From Candidatus Moraniibacteriota bacterium (GTDB lineage: Bacteria; Patescibacteriota; Minisyncoccia; Moranbacterales; GCA-2747515), in contig CP175956.1 of the NCBI GenBank assembly GCA_046116545.1, forward strand, positions 1,089,734-1,153,733: 64,000 bases of DNA, written 5' to 3'. Of this stretch, positions 4,735-41,176 are shown piece after piece. Numbering within the stretch: the stretch's first letter is position 1; each line of letters opens with the position of its first letter. The position numbers and the translations under genes are program-made. Below the pieces are notes generated by a model. The model was not told the DNA's origin, ran no database searches, and saw nothing but the letters and a program-made list of their open reading frames with translations.

Positions 4735-7700
4735 CTATTGAACACCCTTTACAATAAACCAATCAAATTTTATCATATTTTCAATTATATTTTTTGCCTT
4801 AACTGTAAATCCAATTCCATCTTGAACTTCTGACACAATTACTGATTGCTCATCATTACCATATGGTGTTAAGAATATATAGCTATCGCCTGTCACAACT
4901 TCAGTTTCCACAAATACTGTTTGCCCATCTGATTCACTATTTTCAACTTCCACACAACCATCCTCATTCACATCAAAGTTTGTACCAGTTGGACATATAA
5001 CAGATTTTCCTACAATTGCATTATCACCATAATTCTCCAAAGCAAGTTCCTCCACTTCTATAAAGCTAGTCTCTACAACATCTGCAATAATAATCTTAAC
5101 ATTCAATACTCCATCCAATGTCAGACTACCTAACTCATCTGTAAACACTAATTTTTCAGCATCGATTGCAAGTAATTCTTCTATTTTAATCAAATCGGTT
5201 GCTCCAAGTAAATCTAACACCCCCAAACCTTCCTCAGCTGCCTGAATTCTTAAATCTATTTCAGATATCAAATTTGCATTAATATTTGATTTTACTCGTG
5301 TTTCCAAAATGCTTTCACCATTAACTACTATGTCCCCTTGAACTTGATTTAACATTTCAGATGTATTTGATAATTGTTCATCTATTGACAACTGTAAATC
5401 TTCTAATGTTTGGATATTTGTATTTGTTTGTAATATTGTGTTATTTATTTGAGTATCAATTTCACTTATTTTTTCTGGTGTTGGTAAATTTGATATATCT
5501 ATCAGATTTAGATTTGGTATTTCTAATCCTGTTGTTTTATCTGTAATATATATTAGTTGTTGTCCTGTTAGTTTTTCTATCAATCTTACTGTTTTTGTCA
5601 TATCTACATTTATTGATTTGTTGTCTTTTTCAGAGTAATAGCTCCATGCTAGTTCTTCACTTTGTCCTCCTGGTATATTTGAGAAATTATGTGGAGATAG
5701 AGTTGTTGTATTTCCTGCTTCATCTCTTACTCTTAGTTCATGGGAACCACTTTGATCTACTGCAAATAGTTGTATTCCGTCTGTTATTGATGTTGTTGGG
5801 GCTATTGAGTTTGAGATTGTTAGGATATTGTCTGCATTTGTTCCGTAGTTGTTACTTCCTATTCCTACGTTTCCTGATGTGTAGGCTATGTTATTTCCTG
5901 TTTGGGTCCATGGGGAGTTTGTTGAGCCTCCACTTGTTGAGCCTCGATCTAGTTTTACAGCGTGTACGAGTAAATTAAAGCTTCCACCATTTGTTTTAAA
6001 ATAATAATTACTTTTATATGGAATCACAGTACTATGATCTGCAGCACCACCCCATGCGAATTCTTGAGTATCTGCATCAGCAGCACCACCTCTGGCAACA
6101 TGAGACATCACATTTATGCCATCTGCAGAGCACATTAATGTCCATCCATTTGCTGTTCCTGCTTCATTACCTCCAAACATGATTTCTTTCACTCCCAGAG
6201 TTGGCACAAATGCAGAATAGTCTCTCTGTATCCATGAAGTTGACACTGTTGTTGGTATTGTCATTTCACTTGCTTTTTCCCACATCATTAAGTCTCCACT
6301 CATTTGGAACTGTTTTATGTTTGCACTCCCATTAGTAAGAACATACCCAAGCCATCTATATGAAGTGAATCCACTAGGTATATTTGATGCATTTATATCT
6401 GTATCAAATCCTATATCTGTTGTTCCATCATCTTTTTCTATTAGGAATACATGATACATTGTATCGTTTGCAATTGTTCCTGTGAATAATCCTCCTTGAT
6501 CATCTCCTTCTGTGAAAGATGCATCTAATTGTTTTGTAAGTCCTGTTGTTAATTCTAAATCTTTTGAATCTGTTTCATCTTTTGCATATCCACTTGATAC
6601 ATATATATCATGGTCTGTATCTCCTGAATCATTTGATAAATTGAATCCGTATAAGAAGCCTGGGGTATAGGATGATGAGCTACTTCCTGATGATTCTTCT
6701 ATTTTCCAGATTTTTAGGTCTGTGTAGACTTCGTAAGGTGATTGATTAACTGCACGTCCAAGACCAACTGTAGCAGTAGCTGATTCTGCATATTGTCTTA
6801 CATCAAAAGTTTTTGTATCTAATATTGTAAATTTTCCACTTAAACTAGCTATAGAACCACCTGAACCATCATATGAATTAGATCCAATTAATGTATTTTC
6901 TGTATCAGTAATATTATAGAAATATAATCTTGCCCTATTTGTTCCTATGAGAGGTACTGTAATATTTACATTATATGTTCCTGCCGGCAATGTAATTTCT
7001 CCAGTAATACCATTAAGTGAAGCATCTGTGATTTCATTTGTTCCTATTATTGTATTAAGATCTCTTATTTGTATGCCTACACTTGATGTTCCTCCATCTG
7101 TACCTGTTGTTTTTTGATCTTGTACATGCATTAGTTTCCAATTTTGACCTCCTGCCACACTTGAACTTGATTGAATTTCATATGGTGCTGTTGGTGGTGT
7201 GAAATCACTTGTCCATCTTGCTATTCCTTTTGAAATTCTTACTTCATCTAGATAACCACCAAACGAATAGTTACCACCATCAGCTCCACCAATTTTAAGT
7301 GTTTGACTTCCATTAAAGAATCCACCTGTAAATATAAAGCTATCTGTTAAAACCCCATCTAAAAAAGTTTTCATTGTATCTCCGTCACGAGTAAAAGCAA
7401 TGTGATGCCATGTATCAATATTTATACCTGTTACAATTGCCCTTGCATTAGCTACATCATGACTGGAATTATTTGATGAAGAATAAAGTATAATATTTGC
7501 ACCATCTTGCATAATATTCCATGGAGAATACCCTCCATAATTATACTTTCCGACTAATACATGTAACCCTGTCGGTAAAGCATCAGCTCTCATCCAAAAA
7601 TCTATTGTGAATTCATTGTTGTAAACTTCAAAATCCTCACTATCTGGAATATTTAAATAATCTCCTGCTCCATCAAAGTACATAGAACTTCCACCAAACT

Positions 7701-10700
7701 TTGATGCATCTGTTTCATGATGAGCATCTCCATTTGCAGTTATTGTGTGTGTAGAAATTGAACTATCCATAAACTTAACTGAACCATCTGCATCATCTGA
7801 TTGAACAAGCAATTTTGTATTTAAATCTATATTCCCACCGCCTGATCCAGCACTAGCATCAGCACATTCCCAATCACTATTTGATTCATTATATGAAAGA
7901 GTTTGACCATCTGTACATGTTGGTAATGATGAAGATTCTGAGCTTCCTGCGTATTCGTATATGATAACTGCTCCACTTGCTCCAGCACCCGCTCCAGCAC
8001 CACCTAGAGATGCTCCACCAGATCCATATGCCTGTCCTTCAAGCTTTCCAGAAAAGGCAGTTCCGCCACCTCCAAAATATGATGAACCTCCATTAGTTGT
8101 GTGAATGCCATTTCCGCCAGACACATTAATATCACCGCCTGAACCAACACCACCTGAACCACCTTCATAATTAGCACTCACAGAACCTCCTTGTCCACCA
8201 GTTGCTGAACAATGTGTATCAAAAGATGTTGTTCCCCCAGTTGAACCTGCTGTCCCTGCACCACCCGTACTTCCTGCTGCTCCTGCTACTCCAACTGTAA
8301 CTGAAATTGTATTGAGACTTGATACATCAATTATTTTTTCACTATATCCTCCAGCTCCACCTGCTCCATAATGACTATCTCCACCTCCAGCTCCACCACC
8401 TCCACCAACAACCTGAACACGAATAGTTTCAATTCCTGCTGGTTTTGTCCATGTATGTGCTCCTACTGTATCAAATGTTTGAATTGATGCTATTCCGCCT
8501 CCGCCTGAGGTTACCGAATTTGAATCACTATTTGTTGATGTCCAACATCTATATGCTAAAATACTTGTGTCTGGACTACTTCCTGTATTAGAAATTGAAC
8601 CATTACCCGATTCTGCATATCTATTACTAGCATCATGATTACTATTCCATTCTGGATCATCCGTTTCATCTGTCAGTACATAATTTGCCATAGCTATATA
8701 CCACTCAGTTACTGAAGGTAGTCTCCCACCATAGGCATCAAAACAATCATTAGTTGCTGCTTCCCAATTATTCGTCCCACTTTCTATATTTTGCATACAC
8801 CCAAGTGTTTGACCCTGATTTTCTATCTTTGTAAATCCTGAAGGACATGTAGATGAGAAACCACCCGTACTAAAAGCACCCCATGCAGTTCCATTACAAA
8901 ACTCCATGACTTTTGTTGAGTCATTGTATCTCATTGCACCTTCTTTGTTTACATCACATGCATCTGTATCATTTGTTAGAGTTATTGATCCTGTTAAGTT
9001 TATTGGTGCTGAAAACTCTATTTCATTTGATATTGTATTATATGATATTACTGCTTCATCTCCATCTACTCCTATATGTAGAGATGATGGTCCTAGGTAT
9101 AAATCTCTGAATCTATTTGTTGAAGATCCTAGATCGTATGTATCATCTGTATCTGGTCCTATATGTCCTGCTACTTGTAGTGTGAAGTTATCTGGTGTTG
9201 TTGTTCCTATTCCTATATTTCCTGTGTCGTAGTATGCATTTGAACCACTTTGTGTCCAGATATTTGAGTATGAAGTACTACTAGTTCCACTACTAGCTGC
9301 CACACTTACTTCTACAGTTCCAGTAAATGATTCTGGTAATACATCGTACTCGGTAATATCATCACCTGTTGCTCCTACAATAAACATTTTTGTACCATCA
9401 TTATTAAATGCAATACCTTGTACTACAGTATCCTGTGCAAATACACTAAACTTAGAACTATACACAGCAGTAGATACATCAAATGCCGTAGACAACTTAT
9501 ATTCATTTACATCGTCACCAGTGCTTCCTAAAATAAACATTTTTGTTCCATTGGTATTGAAAGCAATGTCCTGTGGAGCAGTCTCTTGTGCTACAACAGA
9601 AAAATTAGAATCATATACTGTGGTAGATACATCAAATCCTGTAGAAAGATGGTATTCATTGACATCATCACCTGTTAATCCTGTAATAAACATTTTTGTA
9701 CCATCAGTGTTAAATGCAATTCCTGATGGCGAGTCTTCTTGAGCGGTTATATCAAATCTCGAATCATATACTGCAGTAGATATATCAAATGCAGTAGAAA
9801 GATTATATTCATTTATTTCATCTGCTGTATTCCCTATTATAAACATCTTTGTTCCATCAGTATTAAATGCTATACCTTGTGGTGAACCATCCTCTGAAAA
9901 ATCAAAAATAGAATCGTATACAGCTGTTGTTATATCAAATGCAGTAGAAAGATGGTATTCATTGATATCAATGCCTGTCAAGCCTACAACAAACATCTTT
10001 GTTCCGTCAGTGTTAAATGCCATAGTTTGTGGTGAAGTGTCTTGCGCTGCAACACTAAAGCTAGCTGAATAATCAACAGGACCAAATTCAAAGCCTCTTG
10101 GAAGATGGTATTCATTGACATCATCACCTGTATTTCCTGTAACAAACATTTTTGTACCATCAGTGTTAAATGCGATACCTTGTGGTGTAGCTTCCTGTGC
10201 ACTAACACTAAATCTGAAAACAAAATTTGCTGTGGAAATATCAAAACCAGTTGAAAGTTCATATTCACCCATATCAATACCAGTCTGACCCATTATGAAC
10301 ATTTTTGTTCCATCAGGATTAAATGCTATACCTGTTGGCGTAGCTTCTTCTGTAGCTACAGAAAACCTAGAATCATATACAGCAGTAGATACATCAAATC
10401 CTGTAGAAAGATGGTATTCATTGACATCATCACCTGTATTTCCTACGATAAACATTTTAGTTCCATCGGTATTGAAATCCATGCTTTGTGGTGCAGTATC
10501 CTGTGCTGCTACAGAAAAATTAGAATCGTATACTGCAGTAGATACGTCAAATCCTGTAGACAAATTATATTCATTAACATCATCACCCGTAGTTCCCACA
10601 ATAAACATCTTTGTTCCATCATTATTGAAAGTAACGTCATTTGGTGCAGTTTCTTGTGCTGCGACAGAGAAAACAGAATCGTATACTGCTGTAGCAGAAT

Positions 10701-13700
10701 CAAATGCAACAGAAAGATTGTATTCATTGATATCATCACCCGTACTTCCAACAACAAACATCTTTGTTCCATCATTATTAAAAGTAATTCCTTGTGGTGC
10801 AGTTTCTTGTGCTACAACAGAAAAATTAGAATCGAATGTTATATTTTCACCAACAGTAAATCCTTCACTCACAGATTCAATTTTAATATTATCACTTGCA
10901 ACTATATCAAAATAACTGAATTCATCATCACCTAAGCCTATTGTATATTGTAAGACATCATCAGCAAGAACTCTCATAGAACCAGTTGCTAGATTTTCTG
11001 TATTTACTATAACTTGATAAAGACCTGTTTCTGTAATATTTTCAAATGCATTCCAAGTTTCAGCTGTTGTAAATATATGATTTATTCCTGAAGTTCCACC
11101 AGAACTCCCAGCAGCAGAAGAACTTATTGTTACAGTTTGTGTTCCTGGTGATTTTTTAACTATTGTTAGAGTTTGATCTCCTAATCCTGTTGTTTGATAT
11201 ACAGTATAATCATCTGTTACATTTTTTTGTGCGTATCCTGTTGCATCAACACTAACATCTATTCTTTTTAGATTTGGGTTTTGTGTATCAGATGTTGAAT
11301 AGAAAGTTGATGATAGATCAAAAGTTGTTTGATCTATTGCAAAGGATCCTGATGATTCCCAATCTGCATCAGATATTGATTCTAATGTTGTAGAGTTCAT
11401 TTGATTCATTACTCCACTTTCTACTGCTTTTGATATTGCACTATTTGCATTATCTTCTATGCCTACTGTACTCCAAGTATCTACGTTATCTCTGAAATAC
11501 CAAGTTCCATCAGTTCCTCCATGAACTGATGCTTCTTTACTTGCAATGTATCTCCATGCTGAACCAGTCCATACTTTGAAAGTATGTCTATTATTGAAAC
11601 TTACCCCGTAGAATATTGATTGAGAGTTTAGGTTTTCTAATACACTTACTGAGTTTATATCTGTCCAATTTGCGCTATCTAAACCATCTTGGTTTGTTAT
11701 TGTTGTTACGTATGCTCCTGTGTAGTTTCCTAGGGTTTTTTCGTAGAATTCCATTTCAGCCAGTCCAACATAACTAACACTATTACTGGCACTAATATTT
11801 ATTCTGTAATATCTATATGCTATATTATTTGTAAATCCACTATAATTTCTTTTTTCACCATCTAACCAACTCATTTCAGCTGATCGTGTATCCAATGCAG
11901 TCCATGTATTTGCATCATTACTTCCTTCAAATGTCCAGTCTTTCGGAGCCCAAGCTGTATTACTTCTTACAGAATACTCATAAACTATTGCCTCATTTCC
12001 TGAACCTAAATCATATTGAAGCCAGCCTGTTGAAATTCCACTTTGAGAAAGCCAAGATGTTGCATTATTGTCATCAAATCCGTAACTTGGTAGATAACTA
12101 GCACTATAAGTTGTACTCGAAGTAGCAGCCCCACCACTAGCCAAATCAGGACCAGTGCCTCCACCAGTATCAACTAAGTCAACTTGAAATTGAGTTATGT
12201 TTTCTTTTAAATCTTCTTGTGTATAATTATCTTCTGAATTGTAATTTATGTTTTGTATTTTATCAGTTTCTGTTTGTTCTTCTGTAATACTTACAATTGC
12301 TGAACCTGATACTGTTGTTGATTCTCCTTGTGCTAGAGTTACTTGAGTTTGAGTTACTCCACTTCCTGATGTTCCTGTTGATAATCCTCCCCATATAGTT
12401 CCATTACAAAACTCCATGACTTTTGAAGTGTCATTGTATCTCATTGCACCTTCTTTTGTTACGTCACAAGCTGATGCGTCATTATTGAGAGTTATACTTC
12501 CTCCTATAGCTAGATTGTTTCCATCGTATGTGAAGTTTGAGTTTTGAGTTATTGCATTTCCTGCACTATTTGTGAATTGTATTTGATTTGCACTTAGGCT
12601 TGCTGGTGTATCTGTTAGTCCTGTATATGTTGAAGTTCCTCCACTTGATGTTAGAGAGTTCCATACTGAACCATCGTATCCTTCTAGATCTGTTCCACTC
12701 CATCTTATCATTCCTGCTACTGCATTTGTACTTGTTCCAAATACTGCTGCTTTATCAAAGTTGAAAGCTTCGTTTATTGTATCGTAACTTATTATTCCTT
12801 CATTTCCGTTTTCTCCTATATGTAGAGAGTTTGGTCCTAGGTATAGGTCTCTGAATCTATTTGTACTACTTCCTAGGTCGTATGTATCATCTGCATCTGG
12901 TCCTATATGTCCTGCTACTTGTAGTTTGAAGTTTGTTGGACTTGTTGTTCCTATCCCTATATTTCCAGAATTTGAAATTCTCATTCTTTCACTACTGTTT
13001 GTTCCAAAAATCATATTTGTATTTTCGAAATTCCACAATTGTGCATTTTCTGAACCATCAATACCATAGATTGTACCATCAATATTTGTAGTTCCTGTAT
13101 CCGTATTTGTCATACTGATATTAATACCAGCTGTTGTTGATGACTTATTAAGATGTAGTTCTCTTGCAGGACTAGTTGTTCCTATTCCAACGTTGCCGGA
13201 AGTTATATAACTATCTCCTCCACTATCAAAGTAAACAGTTTTAACTGTACTACCATTGTATAATTCAAAAATTCCCGCCCCACCAGTAATATGTCGTCCT
13301 AAAAAGGCTCTCGTATTCGGTACCCCATCTACAATCCTTATTCCATCTCCAGCATTGGCATTAACATCCAACTTCGCTCCTGGAGATATCGTTCCTATTC
13401 CCACATCTCCATTATTCATTGTTAATGTCCTAAGCCAAGCATCATCAGTACTATTAGGTTGTGTAAATATAGCCTGATTTCTAAACAATATTTCCCTACC
13501 ATCACCATTAAAACCACTATTTGAATTTCCAGAAGGATCATATCCCATTGAAATAGTTACAGCATCTGTTCCATAAGTTGTGCCAGTAGAACCTAAAATC
13601 AGTGACTTGTATCCTGAACCATACCCAAATATACTTGGCTCCATTGCCTTTCTTGTCCCAACCTTTAAATTACCATTGATATCAAGTAACTCTAATGGAT

Positions 13701-14487: not shown

Positions 14488-14638
14488 TTTTTGTGTTTAT
14501 TGTATCCCCTGTTCTCTCGTATTTACTAAGTTTTTAGTGTTTTTTATTATTTTCTTTTGTTTGTTTATATGGAATAATTATATCATATTGTTTGTTTCTT
14601 GTCTTGTTTTGTTTGTGGATAAGTTTTATTGAAGGATA

Positions 14639-15681: not shown

Positions 15682-15731
15682 AATATTAATTATACTACAT
15701 AAAAATAAAACTTTCTTTTTTGCCTATCTAT

Positions 15732-16971: not shown

Positions 16972-17823
16972 TCAAAAAAGACGTCCATTCATGGACGTCT
17001 TTTGTTTATTTTCGAGATAAGAATTTTGATTTTTTTCTTGATTTAGTTCATTTCCATCTTCGATTGCAATTACTTGACTATAGTATTTATTTACCACACC
17101 TATCCAACGAGATACACTCTCTGGTGAATGTGATGCACAACTACCTCCACACTTCCATGGATAAACTATTTTTGCTGGAGTGTCACGGTTCGTTTCATGT
17201 ACAAAATATGCAAGTCTCTTGGCTATTGTATCAACTGCTTCTTCTGGTGAGCCAAAACATGCATGTCCCATCGCTTGACCGCGCGAACCACTAGTTTTGT
17301 AACCCCAATAATTATAACAATCAATCCCAGCTTTTGATGGAGCTCTTTTGCCCATCTGACTCTCAATATTTGCTATACCAAGTATCATAGCTGCAACTTT
17401 TTTGTCTTTTGAAGCAATGTACTCAGCCATTTCTTCCATATTTGTTCCTTCTAATATAATCGCAATTTCTTGTGCCATTATATCTTGCTCTGACTCCATA
17501 ATTTTGCCTTCATGACTGAGTTTTTTACAATCATTATCGACATCAATTAAAGAACTCTCAATAGTATCTTCTGTAAGAAGATTTTTACTAAGAATACAAG
17601 CATTGTATCTTTGTAGATTTTCATCTGCTACATCCTTTTCTCCTTGCGAAGAAACGGTATCAACAAAATAAAAACTACCAGCAATAACAAGCATGAGTCC
17701 AGCAAGGACAAAGTACATGTGTTTAATTGCAAATGAACTAATTTTATGTAGTGATGATTTGATCATCTTCGGCGTCTCTACACGTAGACGCTTTATCGGT
17801 GACGGTTCGTCATTAATAATCAT
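16972..17823 (-). CDS. membrane-anchored protein with a GH73-like (N-acetylglucosaminidase-like) motif and a conserved 4-Cys C-terminal domain; paralog A
   Basis: 283 aa: short cytoplasmic N-terminus, one TM helix (FVLAGLMLVIAGSFYFV), then an exodomain. The exodomain carries 'IANIESQMGKR', 'DCYNYWGYK', 'CFGS.EEAV' and 'W.KCGGSCASHS..VSRWIGVVNKYY', all shared with the 18367-19662 product. Confidence 0.5.
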   Translation of the reverse strand: MIINDEPSPIKRLRVETPKMIKSSLHKISSFAIKHMYFVLAGLMLVIAGSFYFVDTVSSQGEKDVADENLQRYNACILSKNLLTEDTIESSLIDVDNDCKKLSHEGKIMESEQDIMAQEIAIILEGTNMEEMAEYIASKDKKVAAMILGIANIESQMGKRAPSKAGIDCYNYWGYKTSGSRGQAMGHACFGSPEEAVDTIAKRLAYFVHETNRDTPAKIVYPWKCGGSCASHSPESVSRWIGVVNKYYSQVIAIEDGNELNQEKNQNSYLENKQKTSMNGRLF

Positions 17824-32469: not shown

Positions 32470-32477
32470 ATAATTTT

Positions 32478-32750
32478 ATAATTAAAAATAAAAAAATCCT
32501 CAAAAACAAATGTTTTAAGGACGAATATAATCCGCGATACCACCTTAATTTAAAAACTAAATTCAGTCTTCACTCTTAATTACAGCTATTACAGGCTTAC
32601 CTGTTGAGTTCTACTTCCTACTTTTACATAGAGTTCTTCTCACATCCCCTTATTTAAAATAAGTTCAGTATTGATATTACTGTCAAAGGATTTTATATCT
32701 TTAGACTACAACAAAAATCAACAAATTGCAATAAACTAAATACTTATATA
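32478..32750 (-). promoter_or_regulatory. T-box leader (tRNA-sensing riboswitch) upstream of ileS
   Basis: Minus-strand sequence AATTAAGGTGGTATCGCGG (plus coordinates 32531-32550, read on the minus strand) matches the T-box consensus AATTAGGGTGGTACCGCGG at 17 of 19 positions. About 12 nt downstream is a 9-bp terminator hairpin (UCCUUAAAA...UUUUUGAGGA) plus a U7 run, just 5' of the ileS ATG. Stem I and the specifier codon were not resolved. Confidence 0.6.
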
Positions 32751-32782
32751 AAATCTACCCTACATTTAAAAGCAGGGTAGAT
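32745..32782 (-). terminator. rho-independent terminator of the 2790-aa gene
   Basis: Perfect 9-bp stem ATCTACCCT / AGGGTAGAT (32753-32761 and 32774-32782) with a 12-nt loop. UUUUAUAUAA follows on the minus strand, 22 nt after the stop. T-runs flank both sides, so it may work in both directions. Confidence 0.65.
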
Positions 32783-32803
32783 TTTTAAAATATTGATCTA
32801 ATT

Positions 32804-35800
32804 TCATTCAGAGCCTTCTACAATAAACCAATCAAACTTTATCATATTCGTGATAGCATCTTTCACTTTAACAATGAATCCAACTCCATCTTGAATTTCT
32901 GATACTGATACTAATTGTTCAACATCTCCATGAGGTGTTACAAATATATGACTATTATTTGTTACAGCTTCTGTGGCAACAAATATACTTTGACCATCAC
33001 TTTCACTTTCTAAATCAACTACACAATCATCATCAGCCTCATCATAACTTGTATCTTCTGGACAAATTACTGATTTACCTACAATAGAATCATCTTCTTG
33101 ACTTTCTACTGTCAGCTTATTTATTTCAATTTCTTGTGCAACAAGCTTCTTAACACTTAGTAATCCTTCTAATGTCAAATCTATGACATCTGCAATAATT
33201 TCATTCCCATCTCCATCAACTGTTGATTGTGTTAATACTCCATTTTCAACAAATATTAACTTATCTACATCCAGTGCTAATACTCTCGTATCAATATTAG
33301 TTAATATACTTAGACTTGCTTGCAAGTCATCTATTCTACTATTTATCTCAGGAATCACTTGTTGTGTTAGTGTATTTGCTTCATCTCGTAATTCTAACAC
33401 ATCATCACCAACTTGATTTATGGTATTATAAGATGTTTCAAATTGATCGTCTGTTGAACTTTGCAAATCAACTATATTTGTATCCGTTTTTAATGTAAGA
33501 CTTTTAATACTTGTGTCTATTTCTTGCATTTTATCTGGTGTTGGTAAATCAAGAATATTTAATGAATCAATTTGTGGTATCTCAACCCCTGTATTTTTAT
33601 CAGTTATATATACCAATTTTTCTCCTGTAAGCTTTTCTATAAATCTCATAGCTTTTGTCATATCCACATTGATAATTTTTTCATCTCTTTCTGAACGATA
33701 TGCCCATGCCATATCTTCACTTGCGCCTGCTGGAATATCTGAGAAATTATGTGGTGAAAGAGTTGTTACATTTCCAGCTTCATCACGCACTCGGAGCTCA
33801 TGACTACCAGCATCCTCAACTGCAAACAGTTGAATACCATCTGTAATACTAGCTGTCGGTGCTACTGAACTTGAAATAGTTAATAAATTATTTGCATCAG
33901 TCCCATAATTTTCAGAACCAATTGCCATATTTCCACCATCATAATAAATACCCTCAAAGTTCTCTGTCCACAAAGTATCGCCGTCAGGATTCTCTGTGTT
34001 AACACAATAAAGCACATTCACATTTGTTGGACGTGTTTCACTTCCACCTGTTGCCTGCGTAGTCATTGTTGGCTTCCAATTATATACACCTTCTTTTTTA
34101 TAACCTGTAGTAGTTCCAGCTGCATCATTTTCTGCATCATGTAATTGGAAATCATGATCATGACTTGCAAATTCATCATCTTGAGTAGTTCCTACTGCAT
34201 CACCTGTTGTACCATCACCTCTATCACCACGACTAGCTGCATCTGGATCCAGACCAGCACCATGATCCCAACCACGTAAGAATCGTCCACGATAATCTGG
34301 TACATTAAACGTGCTAGAACCATCACCATCACCATACATATCACCAAGTACTGCATAAAGATCTGGATATGCTGTTCGTGAAGCTTCAGCACCATCTGCC
34401 TCAAGCCAACCTGGTGGACACACTTCTGTAGCATATGCATTCACAGTTCCAGCTGACAATGAATCCGTTGTCCCATGACTACCTATATCCTTTTTTGTAA
34501 TTGCAACACCAGCAACCACATCTCCTGCTCCAGCTGCTGTAAACACAACTCTCAAACTTGATTCATACTTTATATGTGGCAAATTAATAAACGTGTTATC
34601 ATCACCGACTTCATCTTCAAAAAGTCCAACATCTAAACTTTGTAATACACCATCAATTTCAATTGTCACCTCAGATATTGAAGCACCCTCAATATGACCT
34701 GATACTAAATAACCAGATTCATTAGAAATATCAATTAATGTCATTATTCCAACATCAGATTGAACTCTATGTTGTGTAATTCCTCCATTAAGATCATCTG
34801 CCGTTAAATAATCAGATGTTGTACTTCCAATAATAATACCTCCACCGCCACTTCCTGTGCTCAATGCTCCCCAAACTGTACCGTTACAAAACTCCATCGC
34901 CATTTGTGTCGTATTGTATCTCATTGAACCTTCCTTACTTGAATCACAAGCATCAAAATCAGAACCAATTCTTATACTACCTTCTATATCCAAGTTTGTA
35001 CCATCAAACATTAGATTGGTACCTGCAACAATTGCATTTCCAATACTATTAGTATACGGGATTGAACCTGCAATATAGCTTGATGGTGTATCTGTGAGGT
35101 CTAGAAATGATAAATCTGGAGATGTGAATGATTTCCATTGTGTACCATTATATCCTTCAAAATCAGTTCCAGTCCATCGTATATTACCTGCAATTGTATT
35201 TGTTGTTGAACCAAGTCTAATAGCACCATCCACATCCAATGCTTCTTGTGGTGTATTTGTACCAATTCCAACATTTCCACTTGTGTAATATATATCAGAA
35301 CCATTTTGTGTCCACATGCCCAATCCTGTTGTCGGTTGGTCTCCGGCTTCGTTTATTGTTTTTACGTATTGTGGTGAATATGCATTAGTTGCTGTGCTAT
35401 TACCTAACTGTCCTTGTCCATTATATCCCCAACATTGCACACGTCCGCCAGTAGTCTTAACACATGTATGTGTCAGACCTCCATAACCACCCATAGCAAT
35501 TTGAGTTGCGCTGTCTATATTTGAAACCTTAACTGGAGAATATTGATCTGTTGTATTTCCATTTCCAACCTGTCCATTTGCATTATATCCCCAACAACTC
35601 ACCTCTCCACTATTATGTAGTGCACATACTGTTCCATATAAATTATAACCACCTGCAATAATAATGTCTTTAACATCTGTAAGTCCTGGATCTACTGGTG
35701 AATTACTATTTGTTGTTGTCCCTATACCTAATTGACCTCGTCCATTATGTCCCCATGACCTCACTGTTCCATCTTGCAATACTACAAATGTTACATTTCC

Positions 35801-38800
35801 ATTATCTCCACCAATAGCAATATCAAATGCATTTGTAATTCCTAATACTTGAGAAGGTGCCGTCCTATTTGTTGTATCACCTAAACCAAGTGCTCCATCA
35901 TCATTATTTCCCCAACACCATACAGTATTATCATTTTTAATTGCACATCTATGGACCTGTCCAGTGTAATCACCTTGAGCAACCATCTTTGATACATTAT
36001 TTATTGTAATAGGTGTAGGTGTATTTCTTGCTGTAGTTGTACCATCCCCAAGTTCTCCTTGAGCATTTGCTCCCCAACATTGAACTGAACCATCATTGAA
36101 TTGTGCACAATATGAAGCTGTATTTCCTCCACCACCTGATATATCAGCCACATTTCCTGTGATTATTTGTACTGGTGAAGTTTGCTGTGTTGTATTTCCA
36201 TTTCCCACTTGACCTGAAGCATTATATCCCCAACAATATACATTTCCACTTGTGTCTAATGCACATGCTGAAGCTGCTACATTATGTAAATTCCTTGATG
36301 TAGCAATTTTTGAAATATTTTCCAATGCTCCCACTCGCACAGGAGTTGGTCGCTGTGTTGTTGTACCATCACCAAGTGCACCATGACCATTATATCCCCA
36401 AGCATACAAATGACCATTTTCAAGTATTGCATATGTTATTTGTCTATTTGTACTAATTGAGCTCACATTTTCTGGCAATACCACTTCAACTGGTAAGTAT
36501 TTATTTGATATCATACTATCATCACCCAATTCTCCATTTACGTCACGTCCCCAACATTGTACTTTTTTATCTTCCATTATTGCACATGAAATACCTGCAT
36601 TACTGTTTCCCTCCCACAACTTCTCAACCTGATTGATAGTAGTTTCACCACCAGCTGCACCAACTGATATACAAACAGGATCTCCATTTGCATCAAATCC
36701 TCTTAATGCTTCTCCTATTGGACATTGTGTTGTTATGTTAGATGCTAATATATTTCCTGAAGTATATATATCTCCTCCTACTACTGATAGTTTATGTGTT
36801 GGGTTTGTTGTTCCCAATCCTAAGCTTCCACTTTCTGTAAGTGTTAATGTTTGTGTTCCATTTAGTGATATTGCAAAGTTATTATCTACTTGTTCTCTTA
36901 GAGTCCATAGATTTGAATTTGCTCCACTATCTGCTAGTTGTAATATATTTGTTTGTGTTGTTCCGTTTATATCTAATTCGTAATTTGGTGTTGTTGTATT
37001 TATTCCTACATTTCCACTTGTATAATATATATCTGATCCGTTTGCTGTCCACAGTCCACCACCAACTACAGGATTGTCATCATATGTTTCATTAACAGTT
37101 TTCACATATTGAGGAGTTGTCCTCATAGTTTCTGTTCCATTTCCAAGTTGTCCATATGTGTTATCTCCCCAACATTTCATCCTACCATCTATCAATGTTA
37201 CACAAGCATGAGTTGGTCCTGCAAAGCCTCCCATTGCAATATCCTTTGCATATTCAACACCCTCAACAAGACTAGGTGTTGTTTGTGGATTTACAGTTGT
37301 ACCGTTTCCTACTTGACCATTACCATTATATCCCCAACAACTCACTTCACCACTATTATGCAGTGCACAAACAGTTCCATACAAACTATATCCACCAGCA
37401 ATTACCACTTTACTCACATCTGTCAAACCTGCATCCACAGGTGTACTACTATTTGTAGTTGTACCAATGCCCAGCTGTCCTCCACCATTATAACCAGTTG
37501 ATCGTACTGTTCCATCTTGCAATACCACATGTGTTGAAGCACCATTATCACCACCAACTGCAATATCAACTGCATTTGTAATTCCAAGCATTTGTGTTGG
37601 CACATGACGATCTGCTGTATCTCCTACTCCCAAAGCACCATTACCATTATCTCCCCAACACCATACAGTACCATCATTTTTAATTGCACACTTATGACCA
37701 TCTTCACCATAACCACCTTGAGCCACAATTTTTGAAACATTTGACAAACTAATTTGCGTAGGAATATTTCTGTCAATAATAGTACCATCACCAACTTGAC
37801 CTTGAGAATTTCTTCCCCAACACCACACAGATCCATCTGTTTTTGTAGCACAAAATGAACTATATTGACTTCCACCTCCTGAGATACCTGTTACATCTGC
37901 TGCAATAATTTGAACTGGTGAAGTTTGTTGTGTTGTTGTACCATTTCCTACTTGTCCATATCCATTATATCCCCAACAATATACAGCGCCCACATCATTT
38001 AATGCACATACAGTGCCATGATTTTGATATAAGTTTTCTGAAGTTGCTATTTCTGTAATATCTTCCAACGTTCCTATTCTTACTGGAATATGTCTCACTG
38101 TAGTTGTTCCATCTCCCAATTCACCTTGTGCGTTATACCCCCAACCATATACTTGTCCATTTTCTAAAATTGCATATGTTGAATGTTTGTTTGTAATAAC
38201 TTCTTCTACATCACCTGGTAAATTTACTATTTCCGGAAATGGTTTGTCTGCTGCATTCACACCTGTCCCAACTTCACCACTATCATCATGTCCCCAACAC
38301 TGTACAGTTTTATCTTCCATTACTACACATGAAGTTCCATCATTTGATTGTCCTTTCCATATTTTTTCTGCTTTATTTATAGCCAATTCACCACCAGCAG
38401 CTCCAACTGATATACAAACAGGATCTCCATTTGCATCAAATCCTCTTAATGCTTCTCCTATTGGACATTGTGTTGTTATGTTAGATGCTAATATATTTCC
38501 TGAAGTATATATATCTCCTCCTACTACTGATAGTTTATGTGTTGGGTTTGTTGTTCCCAATCCTAAGCTTCCACTTTCTGTAAGTGTTAATGTTTGTGTT
38601 CCATTTAGTGATATTGCAAAGTTATTATCTACTTGTTCTCTTAGAGTCCATAGATTTGAATTTGCTCCACTATCTGCTAGTTGTAATATATTTGTTTGTG
38701 TTGTTCCGTTTATATCTAATTCGTAATTTGGTGTTGTTGTATTTATTCCTACATTTCCACTTGTATAATATATATCTGATCCGTTTGCTGTCCACAATCC

Positions 38801-41176
38801 TGATCCTGCTAGTGGTTGGTCTCCTGCTTCGTTTATTGTTTTTACGTATTGGGGGGTGTATCTATGTAATATATCTCCTTGACCTAATTGACCGTAACCA
38901 TTGTACCCCCAGCACATCATTCTTCCATCTGTTTTCTTGACACAATAATGTGGACCCGTTGTAACTCCCGCAACCGCAAGATCTTGCACATCTTCCAATC
39001 CTGCAACTTGCAATGGCGTTGTTTGATCTGTTATCGTACCATTTCCTACCTGACCATATGCATTATACCCAAAACATGAAACTGTTCCATCTGTATGTAA
39101 TGCACAGGTTGTAGAATGCACATATCTATTTGTAGTATCATACGCAGAACCACCTGGTATAATCTTTGATACATTTGTAAGTCCTGAATCTACTGGAGAA
39201 ACTTGATTAGTTGTTGTTCCATCACCTAATTGACCATGGTTATTATATCCCCAACCTCTTACCGTACCATCTTGCAATGTTACAAATGTTGAGCCTCTTA
39301 TACCTCCAGTTGCTTTAATACTTGTAGCCGTTGTAATCCCTGATACCTGTGTAGGTGCATTTCTTTGTGTTGTATCACCTACTCCTAATTGACCATAACC
39401 ATTATATCCCCAACACCATACTGTTCCATCAGTCTTAATGGCACATTTATATCCTTGACCAGGATAACTCCCATCAATGACCATATCTGATACATTTGCA
39501 ATATTTATTTGGATTGGATTACTCCTATTTGTTGTGGTTCCATCACCTAATTGACCGTAACCATTGTAACCCCAACACCATACTGTTCCATCTATTTTCG
39601 CAGCACAAAATGATGCGTAAGCAGCATTACCACCGTAAATATTATTCACACCTGTTAGCACTTGTACTGGTGAAGTTGCATTTGTTGTTGTTCCATCTCC
39701 TACTTGTCCATAAGCATTGTATCCCCAACAACTAACATTTCCACTACTATCTATTGCACAAGCAGTTGTTGTCTCTTGCATCTGCATTCTTGCTGTAACT
39801 ATCGTCTCTACATTTTCAAGTGTACCTACTCTTACCGGAGTATGTCTCGTTGTAGTTGTTCCATCACCTATTTGCCCCTCATTATTACGTCCCCAAGCAT
39901 ATGCATGACCATTTTCTAATATTGCATAATTGATATTCTTTGTAGACACTACACTTTCTACATCTCCAGGTAACACAACTTCTTGAGGAAATAATTTATT
40001 TGCAATGTCTGCTCCTGTACCTAGCTGTCCGTCATCATCACGTCCCCAACATTGCACACCCTTATCCTCCATCACCACACATGTTGAATAATCTGTATAT
40101 TGACCTTCCCATAATTTCTCAACTTTATTTATAGTTGAAATATCCGCTCCATTATCAGTCAATGATAGCCAATTAGAACCATCATATCCTTCAAAATCAG
40201 CACCTGTCCAACGAATTGTGCCTGCGTTTGTATTTGTTGTATTCCCAATATTTAATGCTCCCGCTATAGTAAGAGATTCCAGCGTACTATTAGTACCTAT
40301 TCCTAATTGATTATTTATATCATCCCAAAAAAGTGCTGTATTATCATCCAATACTCCAGCAGCATTAGTAAATAAAATCGAACCTGATGTATAGCTTCCT
40401 ATAGTATCTGTTAATGATAGGAAATCTGATGCTCCACCACTTCCACCCGAAGTAAGTGAAAGCCAACTTGAACCATCATATCCTTCAAAATCAGTACCAG
40501 TCCACCTAATTGTTCCAGCATTTGAATTAACAGTATTTCCAAAATTGACACCACCGTTAACTGTTAATGTCTCCGTTGTCGTAGATGTACCTATCCCAAC
40601 TCTGTTATTTGCAGTATCTACAAATAAATCATTTGAATTAACTGCAAAATCACCACCAATCTCTAAGCTACCAACTTTTGTTTGATTTGTGGATCCTGTA
40701 TTTAAATAATAATCTTCAGTTTGTCCATTTAGCCTATGTGCATTTAACGCAAAGCCTGTAGGAGTCACCTTTCTTCTAGGAGTCATCTCTGGATTTGATC
40801 CTATTTTTACTCCCAAATAATAATTTTGAGAAAAATCAATATCAATCAGATTATCACCCACTTCTCCCAATATAGTATTGAATATCCCATTTGTTACTGT
40901 AATTGATTTTGCTGTTGGAGTTCCGCATGTTCCTCTACTAGTCCAAAGGCAATTTCCTCCTGTATCCGCATCATATATTGTTAATGTGAAATCATAATCT
41001 CCATCTGATACTGCTACGTTACTAGTATCTGTTAGTTTTCCATGATATGTTAATTCTTTATCTGGAGTCGCAATTACATTTATTGATGTAATTAAAATAA
41101 AAAACAACAAAAAGAAGCTTCCTAATGCATAATTTAATTTACTCATCGTATTTGAAAGTTTTTGTTTTACACCCAT
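32804..41176 (-). CDS. giant secreted/surface protein (2790 aa): N-terminal module shared with the 3250-aa paralog, three tandem RCC1-like propeller modules, a phage-tail-collar domain, and the shared C-terminal module
   Basis: A signal peptide is present. RCC1 repeats 'WGYNGYGQLGDGTTTNRSNPIQI' occur more than 20 times in three ~581-aa super-modules. The tail-collar signature is 'CPPGWLEADGAEASRTAYPDLYAVLGDMYGDGDGSSTFNVPDYRGRFLRGWDHG'. The C-terminal ~470 aa are ~80% identical to the 4735-14487 product and end '...MIKFDWFIVEGSE'. Confidence 0.85.
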   Translation of the reverse strand: MGVKQKLSNTMSKLNYALGSFFLLFFILITSINVIATPDKELTYHGKLTDTSNVAVSDGDYDFTLTIYDADTGGNCLWTSRGTCGTPTAKSITVTNGIFNTILGEVGDNLIDIDFSQNYYLGVKIGSNPEMTPRRKVTPTGFALNAHRLNGQTEDYYLNTGSTNQTKVGSLEIGGDFAVNSNDLFVDTANNRVGIGTSTTTETLTVNGGVNFGNTVNSNAGTIRWTGTDFEGYDGSSWLSLTSGGSGGASDFLSLTDTIGSYTSGSILFTNAAGVLDDNTALFWDDINNQLGIGTNSTLESLTIAGALNIGNTTNTNAGTIRWTGADFEGYDGSNWLSLTDNGADISTINKVEKLWEGQYTDYSTCVVMEDKGVQCWGRDDDGQLGTGADIANKLFPQEVVLPGDVESVVSTKNINYAILENGHAYAWGRNNEGQIGDGTTTTRHTPVRVGTLENVETIVTARMQMQETTTACAIDSSGNVSCWGYNAYGQVGDGTTTNATSPVQVLTGVNNIYGGNAAYASFCAAKIDGTVWCWGYNGYGQLGDGTTTNRSNPIQINIANVSDMVIDGSYPGQGYKCAIKTDGTVWCWGYNGYGQLGVGDTTQRNAPTQVSGITTATSIKATGGIRGSTFVTLQDGTVRGWGYNNHGQLGDGTTTNQVSPVDSGLTNVSKIIPGGSAYDTTNRYVHSTTCALHTDGTVSCFGYNAYGQVGNGTITDQTTPLQVAGLEDVQDLAVAGVTTGPHYCVKKTDGRMMCWGYNGYGQLGQGDILHRYTPQYVKTINEAGDQPLAGSGLWTANGSDIYYTSGNVGINTTTPNYELDINGTTQTNILQLADSGANSNLWTLREQVDNNFAISLNGTQTLTLTESGSLGLGTTNPTHKLSVVGGDIYTSGNILASNITTQCPIGEALRGFDANGDPVCISVGAAGGELAINKAEKIWKGQSNDGTSCVVMEDKTVQCWGHDDSGEVGTGVNAADKPFPEIVNLPGDVEEVITNKHSTYAILENGQVYGWGYNAQGELGDGTTTVRHIPVRIGTLEDITEIATSENLYQNHGTVCALNDVGAVYCWGYNGYGQVGNGTTTQQTSPVQIIAADVTGISGGGSQYSSFCATKTDGSVWCWGRNSQGQVGDGTIIDRNIPTQISLSNVSKIVAQGGYGEDGHKCAIKNDGTVWCWGDNGNGALGVGDTADRHVPTQMLGITNAVDIAVGGDNGASTHVVLQDGTVRSTGYNGGGQLGIGTTTNSSTPVDAGLTDVSKVVIAGGYSLYGTVCALHNSGEVSCWGYNGNGQVGNGTTVNPQTTPSLVEGVEYAKDIAMGGFAGPTHACVTLIDGRMKCWGDNTYGQLGNGTETMRTTPQYVKTVNETYDDNPVVGGGLWTANGSDIYYTSGNVGINTTTPNYELDINGTTQTNILQLADSGANSNLWTLREQVDNNFAISLNGTQTLTLTESGSLGLGTTNPTHKLSVVGGDIYTSGNILASNITTQCPIGEALRGFDANGDPVCISVGAAGGETTINQVEKLWEGNSNAGISCAIMEDKKVQCWGRDVNGELGDDSMISNKYLPVEVVLPENVSSISTNRQITYAILENGHLYAWGYNGHGALGDGTTTQRPTPVRVGALENISKIATSRNLHNVAASACALDTSGNVYCWGYNASGQVGNGNTTQQTSPVQIITGNVADISGGGGNTASYCAQFNDGSVQCWGANAQGELGDGTTTARNTPTPITINNVSKMVAQGDYTGQVHRCAIKNDNTVWCWGNNDDGALGLGDTTNRTAPSQVLGITNAFDIAIGGDNGNVTFVVLQDGTVRSWGHNGRGQLGIGTTTNSNSPVDPGLTDVKDIIIAGGYNLYGTVCALHNSGEVSCWGYNANGQVGNGNTTDQYSPVKVSNIDSATQIAMGGYGGLTHTCVKTTGGRVQCWGYNGQGQLGNSTATNAYSPQYVKTINEAGDQPTTGLGMWTQNGSDIYYTSGNVGIGTNTPQEALDVDGAIRLGSTTNTIAGNIRWTGTDFEGYNGTQWKSFTSPDLSFLDLTDTPSSYIAGSIPYTNSIGNAIVAGTNLMFDGTNLDIEGSIRIGSDFDACDSSKEGSMRYNTTQMAMEFCNGTVWGALSTGSGGGGIIIGSTTSDYLTADDLNGGITQHRVQSDVGIMTLIDISNESGYLVSGHIEGASISEVTIEIDGVLQSLDVGLFEDEVGDDNTFINLPHIKYESSLRVVFTAAGAGDVVAGVAITKKDIGSHGTTDSLSAGTVNAYATEVCPPGWLEADGAEASRTAYPDLYAVLGDMYGDGDGSSTFNVPDYRGRFLRGWDHGAGLDPDAASRGDRGDGTTGDAVGTTQDDEFASHDHDFQLHDAENDAAGTTTGYKKEGVYNWKPTMTTQATGGSETRPTNVNVLYCVNTENPDGDTLWTENFEGIYYDGGNMAIGSENYGTDANNLLTISSSVAPTASITDGIQLFAVEDAGSHELRVRDEAGNVTTLSPHNFSDIPAGASEDMAWAYRSERDEKIINVDMTKAMRFIEKLTGEKLVYITDKNTGVEIPQIDSLNILDLPTPDKMQEIDTSIKSLTLKTDTNIVDLQSSTDDQFETSYNTINQVGDDVLELRDEANTLTQQVIPEINSRIDDLQASLSILTNIDTRVLALDVDKLIFVENGVLTQSTVDGDGNEIIADVIDLTLEGLLSVKKLVAQEIEINKLTVESQEDDSIVGKSVICPEDTSYDEADDDCVVDLESESDGQSIFVATEAVTNNSHIFVTPHGDVEQLVSVSEIQDGVGFIVKVKDAITNMIKFDWFIVEGSE
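36660..37050 (-). repeat. 391-bp 100%-identical direct repeat, copy 2 (the linker between RCC1 modules 2 and 3)
   Basis: Identical by eye to 38403-38793 (offset 1743 bp = 581 codons). It encodes 'GGLWTANGSDIYYTSGNVGINTTTPNYELDING...CISVGAAGGE' in both copies. Confidence 0.9.
38403..38793 (-). repeat. 391-bp 100%-identical direct repeat, copy 1 (the linker between RCC1 modules 1 and 2)
   Basis: See copy 2. Flanks diverge immediately outside: 'tgcacc' vs 'agctcc' on one side, 'cacagtcc' vs 'cacaatcc' on the other. Confidence 0.9.

What the first reader, a model, noticed from the sequence alone, without database searches (positions are those of the whole stretch)
4735..41176. Two giant surface-protein paralogs with conserved N- and C-terminal modules and entirely different central cassettes
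The 3250-aa and 2790-aa proteins share a ~250-aa N-terminal module (ELTYHGKLTDT.NVAVSDGDYDFTLTIYDADTGGNCLWTSRG...EMTPRRK.TPTGFALN...NGQTEDYYLNT) and a ~470-aa C-terminal module ending MIKFDWFIV. Nucleotide identity is ~90% in places, for example 14221-14400 against 40891-41070. Between these termini one gene carries discoidin + Gly-rich + DUF1566-like + LamG + ten 51-aa propeller repeats. The other carries three RCC1 propellers + a phage tail-collar domain. Both also share a small Cys module (ACD..KEG.MRYN...MEFCNGT.WG.LSTG) and tail-fibre-like NVGIGTT.P repeats. This is the architecture of a swappable-cassette adhesin, or a tail-fibre-like receptor-binding protein family with constant anchoring and export ends. 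In a reduced-genome episymbiont-like organism these are prime candidates for host attachment. The conserved C-terminal module with a coiled-coil stretch has no obvious TM segment and no match I recognise to a known anchoring domain.
Basis: partly seen in the sequence, partly recalled or inferred. Interest (0 to 1): 0.78.

Follow-up and report, generated by a model that had tools for sequence, protein, structure and literature searches.

The report
Phage-fibre-like surface fibres of a Patescibacterium
Two giant secreted proteins of a likely Moranbacteria-type ultrasmall bacterium are built like phage tail fibres, with a constant base, swappable binding cassettes and a constant phage-related folding end, which makes them good candidates for how such episymbionts grip their hosts.

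Summary
Genes A (4735-14487, 3250 aa) and B (32804-41176, 2790 aa) share an N-terminal module (72% identity over ~190 aa) and a C-terminal module (51% over ~390 aa). Their middles differ.

The N-module is a signal peptide plus a ~135-aa domain. It heads about 22,600 protein clusters, and every named one I sampled is Patescibacteria.

The C-module has three parts:
- a ~110-aa domain that is 60-68% identical to the extreme C-terminus of tail-fibre proteins on at least 144 uncultivated-phage contigs, and is covered by no Pfam, PHROG or NCBIfam model;
- a long helical (coiled-coil) segment;
- a beta-sandwich resembling the C-terminal domain of phage tailspike depolymerases (K1-lyase_C-like).

In sibling proteins a Peptidase_S74 intramolecular chaperone sits where A and B have the phage-shared domain.

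Architecture, shaft motif and a direct hit to solved Bd2133/Bd3182 fibres point to the Bdellovibrio MAT (mosaic adhesive trimeric) fibres as the closest known system. Homology of the N-domain to MAT could not be tested.

The most likely function is a trimeric, cell-retained adhesin fibre. The C-end is more probably a folding and trimerisation device than an anchor. I call this a new variant of a known kind.

The parts
4735..14487 (-). Gene A, 3250-aa fibre protein
   Evidence: ORF; domains; no exact copy on record in public assemblies
14401..14487 (-). A signal peptide (aa 1-29, ...ITQA/AP)
   Evidence: The only hydrophobic segment in the protein; sequence
13993..14400 (-). A conserved N-domain (aa 30-165, ELTYHGKLTD...PRRKITPTGFALN, one Cys pair)
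   Evidence: 80% aa identity to B and dN/dS 0.22; 22,606 cluster representatives match the profile, nearly always at residues ~1-190
12148..13992 (-). A shaft with VGIGTxxPxxxL capping-loop motifs (aa 166-780) and first Cys module (aa 674-694)
   Evidence: Motif positions; hits to solved Bdellovibrio fibres Bd2133 8OND (E 4.4e-5) and Bd3182 8OJN
11767..12126 (-). A discoidin (F5_F8_type_C) cassette, aa 788-907
   Evidence: Pfam 29.4 bits against cut-off 28.2; phrog_17517 tail protein
9325..10872 (-). A ten ~51-aa repeats (aa 1206-1721), probable beta-propeller
   Evidence: Self-BLAST shows 62-70% identical units; only sub-threshold propeller hits
8821..9228 (-). A second shaft motif plus Cys module (aa 1754-1889), a duplicate of aa 506-715
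7831..8469 (-). A Gly_rich_2 cassette (aa 2007-2219)
   Evidence: Pfam E 2.6e-9; phrog_863 'tail fiber assembly' E 2e-45
7228..7674 (-). A Laminin_G_3 cassette (aa 2272-2420)
   Evidence: Pfam E 6e-21
5518..5910 (-). A C-module part 1: phage-shared 'core' domain (aa 2860-2990; ...SHELRVRDEAGNTTTLSPHNFS...INVDM...IEKLTG)
   Evidence: More than 200 homologues at 55-66% identity; 144 IMG/VR contigs; AF2 pLDDT ~88-93; no family model covers it
5098..5517 (-). A C-module part 2: long helices / coiled coil (aa ~2991-3130)
   Evidence: AF2 helices at module residues 145-194 and 202-234; weak profile hit to T4 fibritin, E 0.0013
4738..5097 (-). A C-module part 3: terminal beta-sandwich ending MIKFDWFIV (aa ~3131-3250)
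32804..41176 (-). Gene B, 2790-aa fibre protein
   Evidence: ORF; domains
40661..41176 (-). B signal peptide (aa 1-36) and N-domain (aa 37-172)
35027..40246 (-). B three RCC1 seven-blade propellers separated by shaft motifs (aa ~311-2050)
   Evidence: Pfam RCC1 with 21 stretches and WD40_RLD E 9e-195; triplicated structure
34277..34450 (-). B phage Tail Collar domain (aa 2243-2300)
   Evidence: Pfam E 3e-21; phrog_523 and phrog_327 tail collar fibre
32807..33970 (-). B C-module (core aa 2403-2533, helices 2534-2670, beta-sandwich 2671-2790)
   Evidence: 51% identity to A; K1-lyase_C E 0.0042 at module residues 329-370

Best explanation
A and B are two paralogous members of a very large Patescibacteria family of secreted, phage-tail-fibre-like fibres. 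In architecture they are the counterpart of the Bdellovibrio MAT (mosaic adhesive trimeric) adhesins.

Proposed working, with each step marked:
1. Sec export through the N-terminal signal peptide. The signal is shown; cleavage is inferred.
2. The constant ~135-aa N-domain holds the fibre on the producer's envelope. This is inferred from its position, its constancy and the MAT precedent.
3. A shaft made of VGIGTxxPxxxL capping-loop segments carries interchangeable ligand-binding cassettes. In A these are discoidin, a 10-repeat propeller, Gly-rich and LamG. In B they are three RCC1 propellers and a tail collar. The domains are shown; binding is inferred.
4. The constant C-terminal module is a phage-shared core domain, a coiled coil and a K1-lyase_C-like beta-sandwich. 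It registers three chains and nucleates folding from the C-terminus. This is the job done by the Peptidase_S74 intramolecular chaperone that occupies the same slot in sibling proteins (inferred).
5. Diversity arises by cassette exchange among paralogues and with phages. The mosaicism is shown.

The biological role would be recognition of and attachment to the host cell of an episymbiont.
For: - Ends conserved and under purifying selection.
- Single N-terminal hydrophobic segment, no other TM segment, no LPXTG.
- The N-module heads 22,606 clusters of proteins 124-6031 aa long. All named ones sampled are Patescibacteria or Moraniibacteriota, typically with two copies per MAG.
- 19 of the 41 closest relatives carry Peptidase_S74. 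Others carry FG-GAP, LVIVD, YadA_head, End_tail_spike or Collar.
- 31 of 153 relatives end in the same beta-sandwich. In 13 of these, the S74 catalytic motif (SDxxxK-type) lies mostly ~190-260 aa upstream of that beta-sandwich, the slot that the core domain fills in A and B.
- The shaft matches the solved MAT fibres Bd2133 and Bd3182 at the capping-loop motif.
- MAT features come from PMC10769870.
- The core domain is the extreme C-terminus of fibre ORFs in all 79 viral-contig ORFs that could be measured, out of 80 loci kept. Those contigs have GC 34-65%. Such host diversity argues for a generic structural role rather than specificity.
- The AF2 model of the C-module has pLDDT 79 and shows a beta domain, long helices and a beta-sandwich. 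Fold matches are to tailspike C-terminal domains.
- Tailspike C-terminal domains commonly act in folding and trimerisation (PMC10653864).
- Neighbours are housekeeping genes, not phage genes.
Against: - No experiment or multimer model shows trimerisation, surface retention or adhesion.
- Homology of the N-domain to the Bdellovibrio MAT N-domain was not tested, because no Bdellovibrio sequence could be obtained.
- The core domain shows no detectable homology to S74 (hhalign probability 0.9%) and has no conserved Ser-Lys dyad. Its chaperone role rests on position and conservation only.
- In MAT fibres the variable part is the tip. Here the tip is constant and the variable parts are internal.
- If the signal peptide is cleaved, nothing demonstrated keeps the protein on the cell.
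Confidence: 0.6

Rival explanations
1. The conserved C-terminal core domain is the receptor-binding tip, not a folding device. The bacterium borrowed a phage receptor-binding domain, and the fibre binds hosts through its constant end, while the internal cassettes are accessory.
For: In phages the core is the distal C-terminal end of the fibre, which is the usual place for receptor binding. It is 60-68% identical between phages and genes A and B. It folds as a compact beta domain.
Against: The same domain occurs in phage contigs with GC from 34 to 65% and on many different fibre bodies. 30 of 95 columns are invariant. Receptor-binding tips are normally the most variable part. In A and B the core is not terminal: a coiled coil and a beta-sandwich follow it. 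In siblings that slot holds an S74 chaperone.
Confidence: 0.2
2. The proteins are secreted tailspike-like enzymes or weapons, such as polysaccharide or cell-wall depolymerases, used to attack the host envelope rather than to adhere.
For: The terminal domain resembles that of capsule depolymerases. One relative carries End_tail_spike and another K1-lyase_C. Giant genes of predatory bacteria have been linked to cell-wall degradation (bioRxiv 10.1101/2023.11.21.568195, listed, abstract only).
Against: No catalytic domain, beta-helix lyase or hydrolase is detected in A or B. Every recognised cassette is a binding or propeller type.
Confidence: 0.1
3. One reading: the C-terminal module anchors the protein to the cell, and the N-terminal module serves only for export.
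For: The C-module is conserved between the paralogues and in about 30 relatives.
Against: There is no TM segment, LPXTG motif or lipobox. The relatives of its parts sit at the free ends of phage fibres and tailspikes. In 13 relatives it lies downstream of a self-cleaving S74 motif. The N-domain extends well beyond a signal peptide and is the most conserved part, at 80% identity.
Confidence: 0.07
4. The genes are virion, prophage or tailocin tail fibres lying in the chromosome.
For: There are many PHROG tail hits, and the core domain is common in viral contigs.
Against: Both proteins have signal peptides. Neighbours across the 64 kb are IleRS, ArgRS, RecO, Lgt, pyruvate kinase, a P-type ATPase and the like, with no capsid, tail or terminase genes. 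The close form of the N-module and the last domain are absent from IMG/VR. Only 8 partial, signal-peptide-bearing N-module matches turn up with a broad pattern.
Confidence: 0.03

Closest known systems
Bdellovibrio bacteriovorus MAT (mosaic adhesive trimeric) fibres, e.g. Bd3182, Bd2133, Bd2439 (Caulton et al. 2024, PMC10769870)
   Same: Both have a signal peptide followed at once by a constant ~130-aa domain. Both have a shaft with the VGxGTxxPxxxL capping-loop motif, and gene A hits the 8OND and 8OJN sequences directly. Family members end either in Peptidase_S74 or in other domains. Both occur as several mosaic paralogues per genome. Both belong to a cell that must recognise another cell.
   Different: The host lineage is Patescibacteria, which is not in the paper's list of MAT-bearing taxa. 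The proteins are about 3 times larger. The variable cassettes are internal, not only at the tip. The C-terminus is constant and tripartite. S74, where present, is followed by ~200-270 further residues. Homology of the N-domains is untested.
Phage tail fibres and tailspikes with a C-terminal intramolecular chaperone (Peptidase_S74: endosialidase K1F, T5 pb1)
   Same: Both have a fibre body followed by a C-terminal module that includes a helical coiled coil. S74 occupies the equivalent slot in 13 of the 31 relatives that end in the same beta-sandwich.
   Different: A and B lack S74. Their core domain is not detectably homologous to it and lacks a conserved Ser-Lys pair. They are exported cellular proteins, not virion parts.
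Uncultivated-phage tail fibres ending in the '...SSELKVRDEAGNxTTLSPHNFS...INVDM...LTGEKLVY' domain (e.g. P0077 on a 67-kb phage contig with SU10_adaptor and lysozyme genes)
   Same: The ~95-110-aa domain is 60-68% identical and is preceded by the same shaft motif.
   Different: In phages the domain ends the protein. In A and B it is followed by a coiled coil and a beta-sandwich. No cultured-phage record carries it.
Tailspike depolymerases with a K1-lyase_C-type C-terminal beta-sandwich (K1 lyase 7W1C, K64-1 S2-4 9K4A, Pam1 tailspike 7EEA)
   Different: The sequence match is below the Pfam threshold. No catalytic beta-helix is present.

Membership tests
MAT fibre family (PMC10769870) | N-terminal signal peptide | tested here: met
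   One hydrophobic segment, at aa 8-31 in A and aa 11-39 in B, with an AxA-like site
MAT fibre family (PMC10769870) | Conserved beta-rich ~130-aa domain directly after the signal peptide, homologous to that of Bd MATs | not testable with these tools
   A constant ~135-aa domain is present at that position. No Bdellovibrio N-domain sequence or structure could be obtained: the PDB holds only tip fragments, and the attempt to fetch Bd2133 failed.
MAT fibre family (PMC10769870) | Fibre shaft with the capping-loop motif V-G-x-G-T-x-x-P-x-x-x-L and similarity to solved MAT shafts | tested here: met
   Seven motifs in each protein. phmmer hits to Bd2133 8OND (E 4.4e-5) and Bd3182 8OJN (E 0.017-0.057).
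MAT fibre family (PMC10769870) | C-terminus is either Peptidase_S74 or a swapped alternative domain; several mosaic paralogues per genome | tested here: met
   A and B are non-S74. 19 of 41 relatives have S74. There are two paralogues in the window and two per MAG. Similarity among relatives is mosaic.
MAT fibre family (PMC10769870) | Trimeric, surface-displayed fibre | not testable with these tools
   Only a monomer AF2 model of the C-module was possible.
Peptidase_S74 intramolecular chaperone (PF13884) | Pfam match and SDxxxK catalytic motif | tested here: not met
   No PF13884 hit in A or B. hhalign of the core domain against S74 gives probability 0.9%.
K1-lyase_C (PF24146) | Sequence match above the gathering score; same fold | tested here: inconclusive
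   14.1 and 18.0 bits against a cut-off of 27. The fold search does recover K1 lyase-type C-terminal domains.
Virion-borne phage tail fibre | Encoded among phage structural genes, without a signal peptide | tested here: not met
   Housekeeping neighbours and signal peptides.
RCC1 / Collar / F5_F8_type_C / Laminin_G_3 / Gly_rich_2 cassettes | Pfam gathering score | tested here: met
   All are above their cut-offs.
DUF1566 (PF07603) | Pfam match | tested here: not met
   No hit even at E 0.5 on aa 1860-2010.
Sortase-anchored (LPXTG) or lipoprotein surface protein | C-terminal LPXTG plus TM segment, or an N-terminal lipobox Cys | tested here: not met
   No LPXTG motif, no C-terminal hydrophobic segment, and no Cys in the signal peptide.

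The most novel reading that the evidence does not exclude
The ~110-aa 'core' domain (…SELK/RVRDEAGNxTTLSPHNFS…INVDM…LTGEKLVY) is an undescribed second class of C-terminal fibre-folding module, possibly self-processing. It would be functionally interchangeable with Peptidase_S74. It circulates at 60-68% identity between the tail fibres of phages with very different hosts (contig GC 34-65%) and the chromosomal host-attachment fibres of Patescibacteria.
Probability: 0.3. Interest if true: 0.7.

Novelty: new variant of a known kind. Interest (0 to 1): 0.55.

Why it matters
How ultrasmall episymbiotic Patescibacteria recognise and hold their hosts is largely unknown beyond type IV pili (PMC12206443 abstract). 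These results point to a concrete, very large family of fibre proteins. About 22,600 clusters share the N-module. The family has the logic of phage receptor-binding proteins and of the Bdellovibrio MAT adhesins. This gives testable candidates for host-range determinants.

The results also suggest that MAT-like fibres may be a general tool of bacteria that live on other bacteria.

Finally, they expose a highly conserved, unmodelled phage tail-fibre C-terminal domain that deserves a family model and a structure.

Tried and rejected
- A single-sequence AF2 model of the C-module was useless (pLDDT 37). It was redone with an alignment.
- tblastn of the core domain against 50,697 deposited phage genomes found no match.
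- Sequence searches of the PDB with the N- and C-modules gave nothing significant, apart from fibritin-type coiled-coil noise.
- Core domain as a divergent S74: hhalign probability 0.9%, and the Ser/Lys positions are not conserved, so this was rejected.
- I tried to fetch full-length Bd2133 by searching with 212 aa read from the 8OND alignment. The best hit was only 39% identical, so the MAT N-domain test failed.
- Scan of IMG/VR viral contigs for the close N-module: none. A broader pattern gave 8 partial matches in signal-peptide-bearing proteins of GC 50-59% (3 of the 8 examined), probably cellular.
- Scan of viral contigs for the last domain: none.
- The 'Micavibrio' and 'Bdellovibrionales' labels on some MAG hits could not be checked from flanking genes.
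- The upstream regions of A and B share no conserved element.
- No tRNA or Rfam feature lies in the window.
- NCBIfam gave no hit for A or B.
- DUF1566 was not confirmed.
- No paper in the library links the Bdellovibrio 'chimeric fibre proteins' (MAT) paper, endosialidase-chaperone or Peptidase_S74 terms to Patescibacteria.
Full report
**Observation.** The two ORFs are real: gene A is 4735-14487(-), 3250 aa, and gene B is 32804-41176(-), 2790 aa. With composition-corrected BLASTP they align at the N-terminus (A1-189 / B3-196, 72% identity, E 1e-78) and at the C-terminus (A2860-3248 / B2403-2788, 51%, E 6e-112). A few internal pieces also align, for example A538-702 with B1952-2105 at 47%. No third copy of either end exists in the window. 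At the nucleotide level the N-terminal match is 80.6% over 479 nt. At the true offset of 26668, the stretch 14221-14400 is 89% identical, and the best 180-nt window reaches 90%.

Pfam confirms these domains above threshold:
- In A: F5_F8_type_C, Gly_rich_2 and Laminin_G_3.
- In B: 21 RCC1 repeats (three propellers) and a phage Tail Collar.

The ~10 repeats of 51 aa (A1206-1721) are real, but they give only sub-threshold propeller hits. DUF1566 is not confirmed. Each protein has seven VGIGT..P motifs, and the small Cys module is present in both. NG86 estimates show purifying selection on both ends: dN/dS is 0.22 for the N-domain, 0.14 for the core and 0.29 for the last domain. The N-domain has the lowest dS, 0.64.

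**Setting.** The window has 33% GC, and all genes lie on one strand. The neighbours are housekeeping genes: IleRS, ArgRS, RecO, Lgt, pyruvate kinase, a P-type ATPase, GH1, GT4, an AcrB/HlyD pair, a VirD4-like ATPase, methionine aminopeptidase and a SpoU methylase. There are no phage structural genes, no tRNAs and no Rfam hits. The closest relatives of both modules come from Candidatus Moraniibacteriota and other Patescibacteria MAGs. This organism assignment rests on those relatives, not on a marker-gene phylogeny. The pyruvate kinase is found identically in several public assemblies, whose contigs break inside the neighbouring giant gene. Gene A as a whole is not on record.

**N-terminal module.** It consists of a signal peptide followed by a ~135-aa domain (ELTYHGKLTD...PRRKITPTGFALN) with one Cys pair. 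The signal peptide is the only hydrophobic segment of each protein, and there is no LPXTG motif. An exhaustive HMM search of 1.84 billion cluster representatives found 22,606 proteins at E<=1e-3 and 7,248 at E<=1e-10. The match lies almost always at residues ~1-190, in proteins of 124 to 6031 aa. 123 of 145 top hits have an N-terminal hydrophobic stretch. No Pfam, NCBIfam or PHROG model and no PDB sequence matches the domain. In IMG/VR the close form is absent. A broad pattern finds only 8 partial matches. The three examined are signal-peptide-bearing proteins of GC 50-59%, which look cellular.

**What the relatives look like.** Of the 41 closest N-module proteins, 19 carry Peptidase_S74, the self-cleaving intramolecular chaperone of endosialidases and tail fibres. 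Others carry FG-GAP, LVIVD, Collar, Gly_rich_2, YadA_head, End_tail_spike, G8 or DUF642. Thirty-one of 153 end in the same ~95-aa terminal domain as A and B (...FDW[FWLM]IV). In 13 of these the S74 catalytic motif lies mostly 190-260 aa upstream of that domain. Similarity between A or B and the relatives is mosaic. Ends are shared, individual cassettes are shared with different partners, and there is no full-length orthologue. MAGs typically hold two copies, often cut by contig ends. One 1.18-Mb contig carries a frameshifted member ending in S74 plus an intact one.

**C-terminal module.** It has three parts.

- *Part 1, the core domain.* A ~110-aa core is shared at 55-66% identity with more than 200 proteins of 220-680 aa. 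Their N-terminal parts match tail-fibre PHROGs, DUF2793 or Mtd_N. One of them sits on a phage contig with an SU10 adaptor and a lysozyme. Another is a signal-peptide-bearing protein on a 745-kb Patescibacteria-like chromosome, next to LVIVD and S74 proteins and a pilin. 144 IMG/VR contigs encode the domain. In all 79 viral-contig ORFs that could be measured (of 80 loci kept), the ORF stops 60-79 aa after the VRDE motif, so the core is the extreme C-terminus of the phage fibre. Those contigs span GC 34-65%. Thirty of 95 columns are invariant. No cultured-phage genome has the domain, and no family library models it.
- *Part 2, the helical segment.* With a 42-sequence alignment, AF2 gives a usable model (pLDDT 79). 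It shows a beta domain ending in a helix (the core, pLDDT ~88-93), then two long helices. The alignment profile weakly matches the trimeric coiled coil of T4 fibritin (E 0.0013).

**Comparison with known systems.** The closest described system is the MAT (mosaic adhesive trimeric) fibre family of Bdellovibrio bacteriovorus (PMC10769870). It has 21 surface-displayed trimeric fibres. Each has a signal peptide, an invariant ~130-aa beta-rich N-domain thought to hold the fibre on the predator, and a beta-helical shaft with V-G-x-G-T-x-x-P-x-x-x-L capping loops. Each ends either in S74 (13 proteins) or in swapped tip domains (8 proteins). The paper lists MATs in other predators (Micavibrio, Omnitrophica, FCB group) but none in Patescibacteria. 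Gene A's shaft hits the solved Bd2133 (8OND, E 4.4e-5) and Bd3182 (8OJN) sequences exactly at that loop motif. All architectural criteria are met. The one criterion I could not test is homology of the N-domains, because no Bdellovibrio N-domain sequence was obtainable. No paper in the held library connects MAT or S74 fibres with Patescibacteria.

**Mechanism.** I propose a Sec-exported, trimeric, cell-retained fibre. The N-domain is the base and the cassettes are the binding surfaces. The C-module is a registration and folding device equivalent to, and in relatives combined with, the S74 chaperone. The general statement that tailspike C-terminal domains serve folding, trimerisation and/or recognition is taken from PMC10653864. 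The following are shown:
- the domain composition;
- the homologies;
- the mosaicism;
- the positional equivalence of the core with S74;
- the selective constraint.

Trimerisation, retention, adhesion and any processing are inferred. The core is not homologous to S74 by hhalign (0.9%). Its wide spread across phages with very different GC argues against a specificity-determining role but does not exclude binding to a ubiquitous ligand.

**Rivals.** They are ranked in the structured fields: core as receptor-binding tip, depolymerase-like weapon, C-terminal anchor, and prophage or tailocin fibre.

**Verdict.** The 'unknown anchoring C-terminus' is not: that end is phage-related and more likely a folding module. 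I rate it a new variant of a known kind, namely MAT-like or phage-fibre-like adhesins, here giant, with internal cassettes and a constant tripartite C-end, in Patescibacteria. Interest is about 0.55.

Noticed in passing
window 44185-49821 (-): A third giant protein (1878 aa), unrelated to A and B (no BLASTP hit). It has Big_5 and CarboxypepD_reg domains and hydrophobic, TM-like segments near its C-terminus. The 44-46 kb stretch has an odd composition: GC skew -0.02 and AT skew -0.31, against about -0.3 and -0.1 elsewhere. It is a different kind of large envelope protein.
   Followed up: partly
L001 3129-11254 (745-kb ENA contig NODE_2, ERZ869938): A Patescibacteria-like chromosome carries a row of LVIVD / beta-propeller proteins (one with Peptidase_S74). 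Next comes a 417-aa signal-peptide-bearing fibre ending in the phage-shared core domain, then a small N_methyl pilin-like gene, just upstream of rpoB/rpoC. This may be a fibre gene cluster near pilin genes.
   Followed up: no
L108 4232-7171 (CAZXKY010000015.1): Three consecutive ORFs (266, 212 and 418 aa) read like one split fibre gene with shaft motifs, Collar, core, coiled coil and last domain. This is the same C-terminal block as gene B, but the start has no signal peptide and no N-module. It is either a pseudogene or a differently headed family member.
   Followed up: partly
L004 10001-14459 (JGI Ga0645781_00011, 1.18 Mb): The N-module gene P0121 (193 aa) is followed by three overlapping ORFs, the last with Peptidase_S74. 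It looks like a frameshifted family member. An intact member, P0125 (1430 aa), lies on the same contig.
   Followed up: partly
L005, L006, L012, L024 (genome-contig hits): N-module proteins 49-63% identical to gene A (the L024 match covers only 35 residues) come from MAGs titled 'Micavibrio sp.' or 'Bdellovibrionales', which are predator lineages. Where computed, their GC is 31-42% (L005, L006, L012). Flanking genes did not settle whether the labels are right. If the labels are right, this would link the family directly to predators.
   Followed up: partly
window 59880-62363 (-) and 54564-58865 (-): A VirD4/TraG-like coupling ATPase (TrwB_AAD_bind, TraG-D_C) and an AcrB/HlyD pair lie near the fibre genes. 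MacB/HlyD genes also lie upstream of family members in L012 and L108. Whether this association is recurrent was not examined.
   Followed up: no
window 16972-17823 (-) and 18367-19662 (-): Two ORFs of 283 and 431 aa between the GH1 gene and lgt have no Pfam match at E<=0.01.
   Followed up: no
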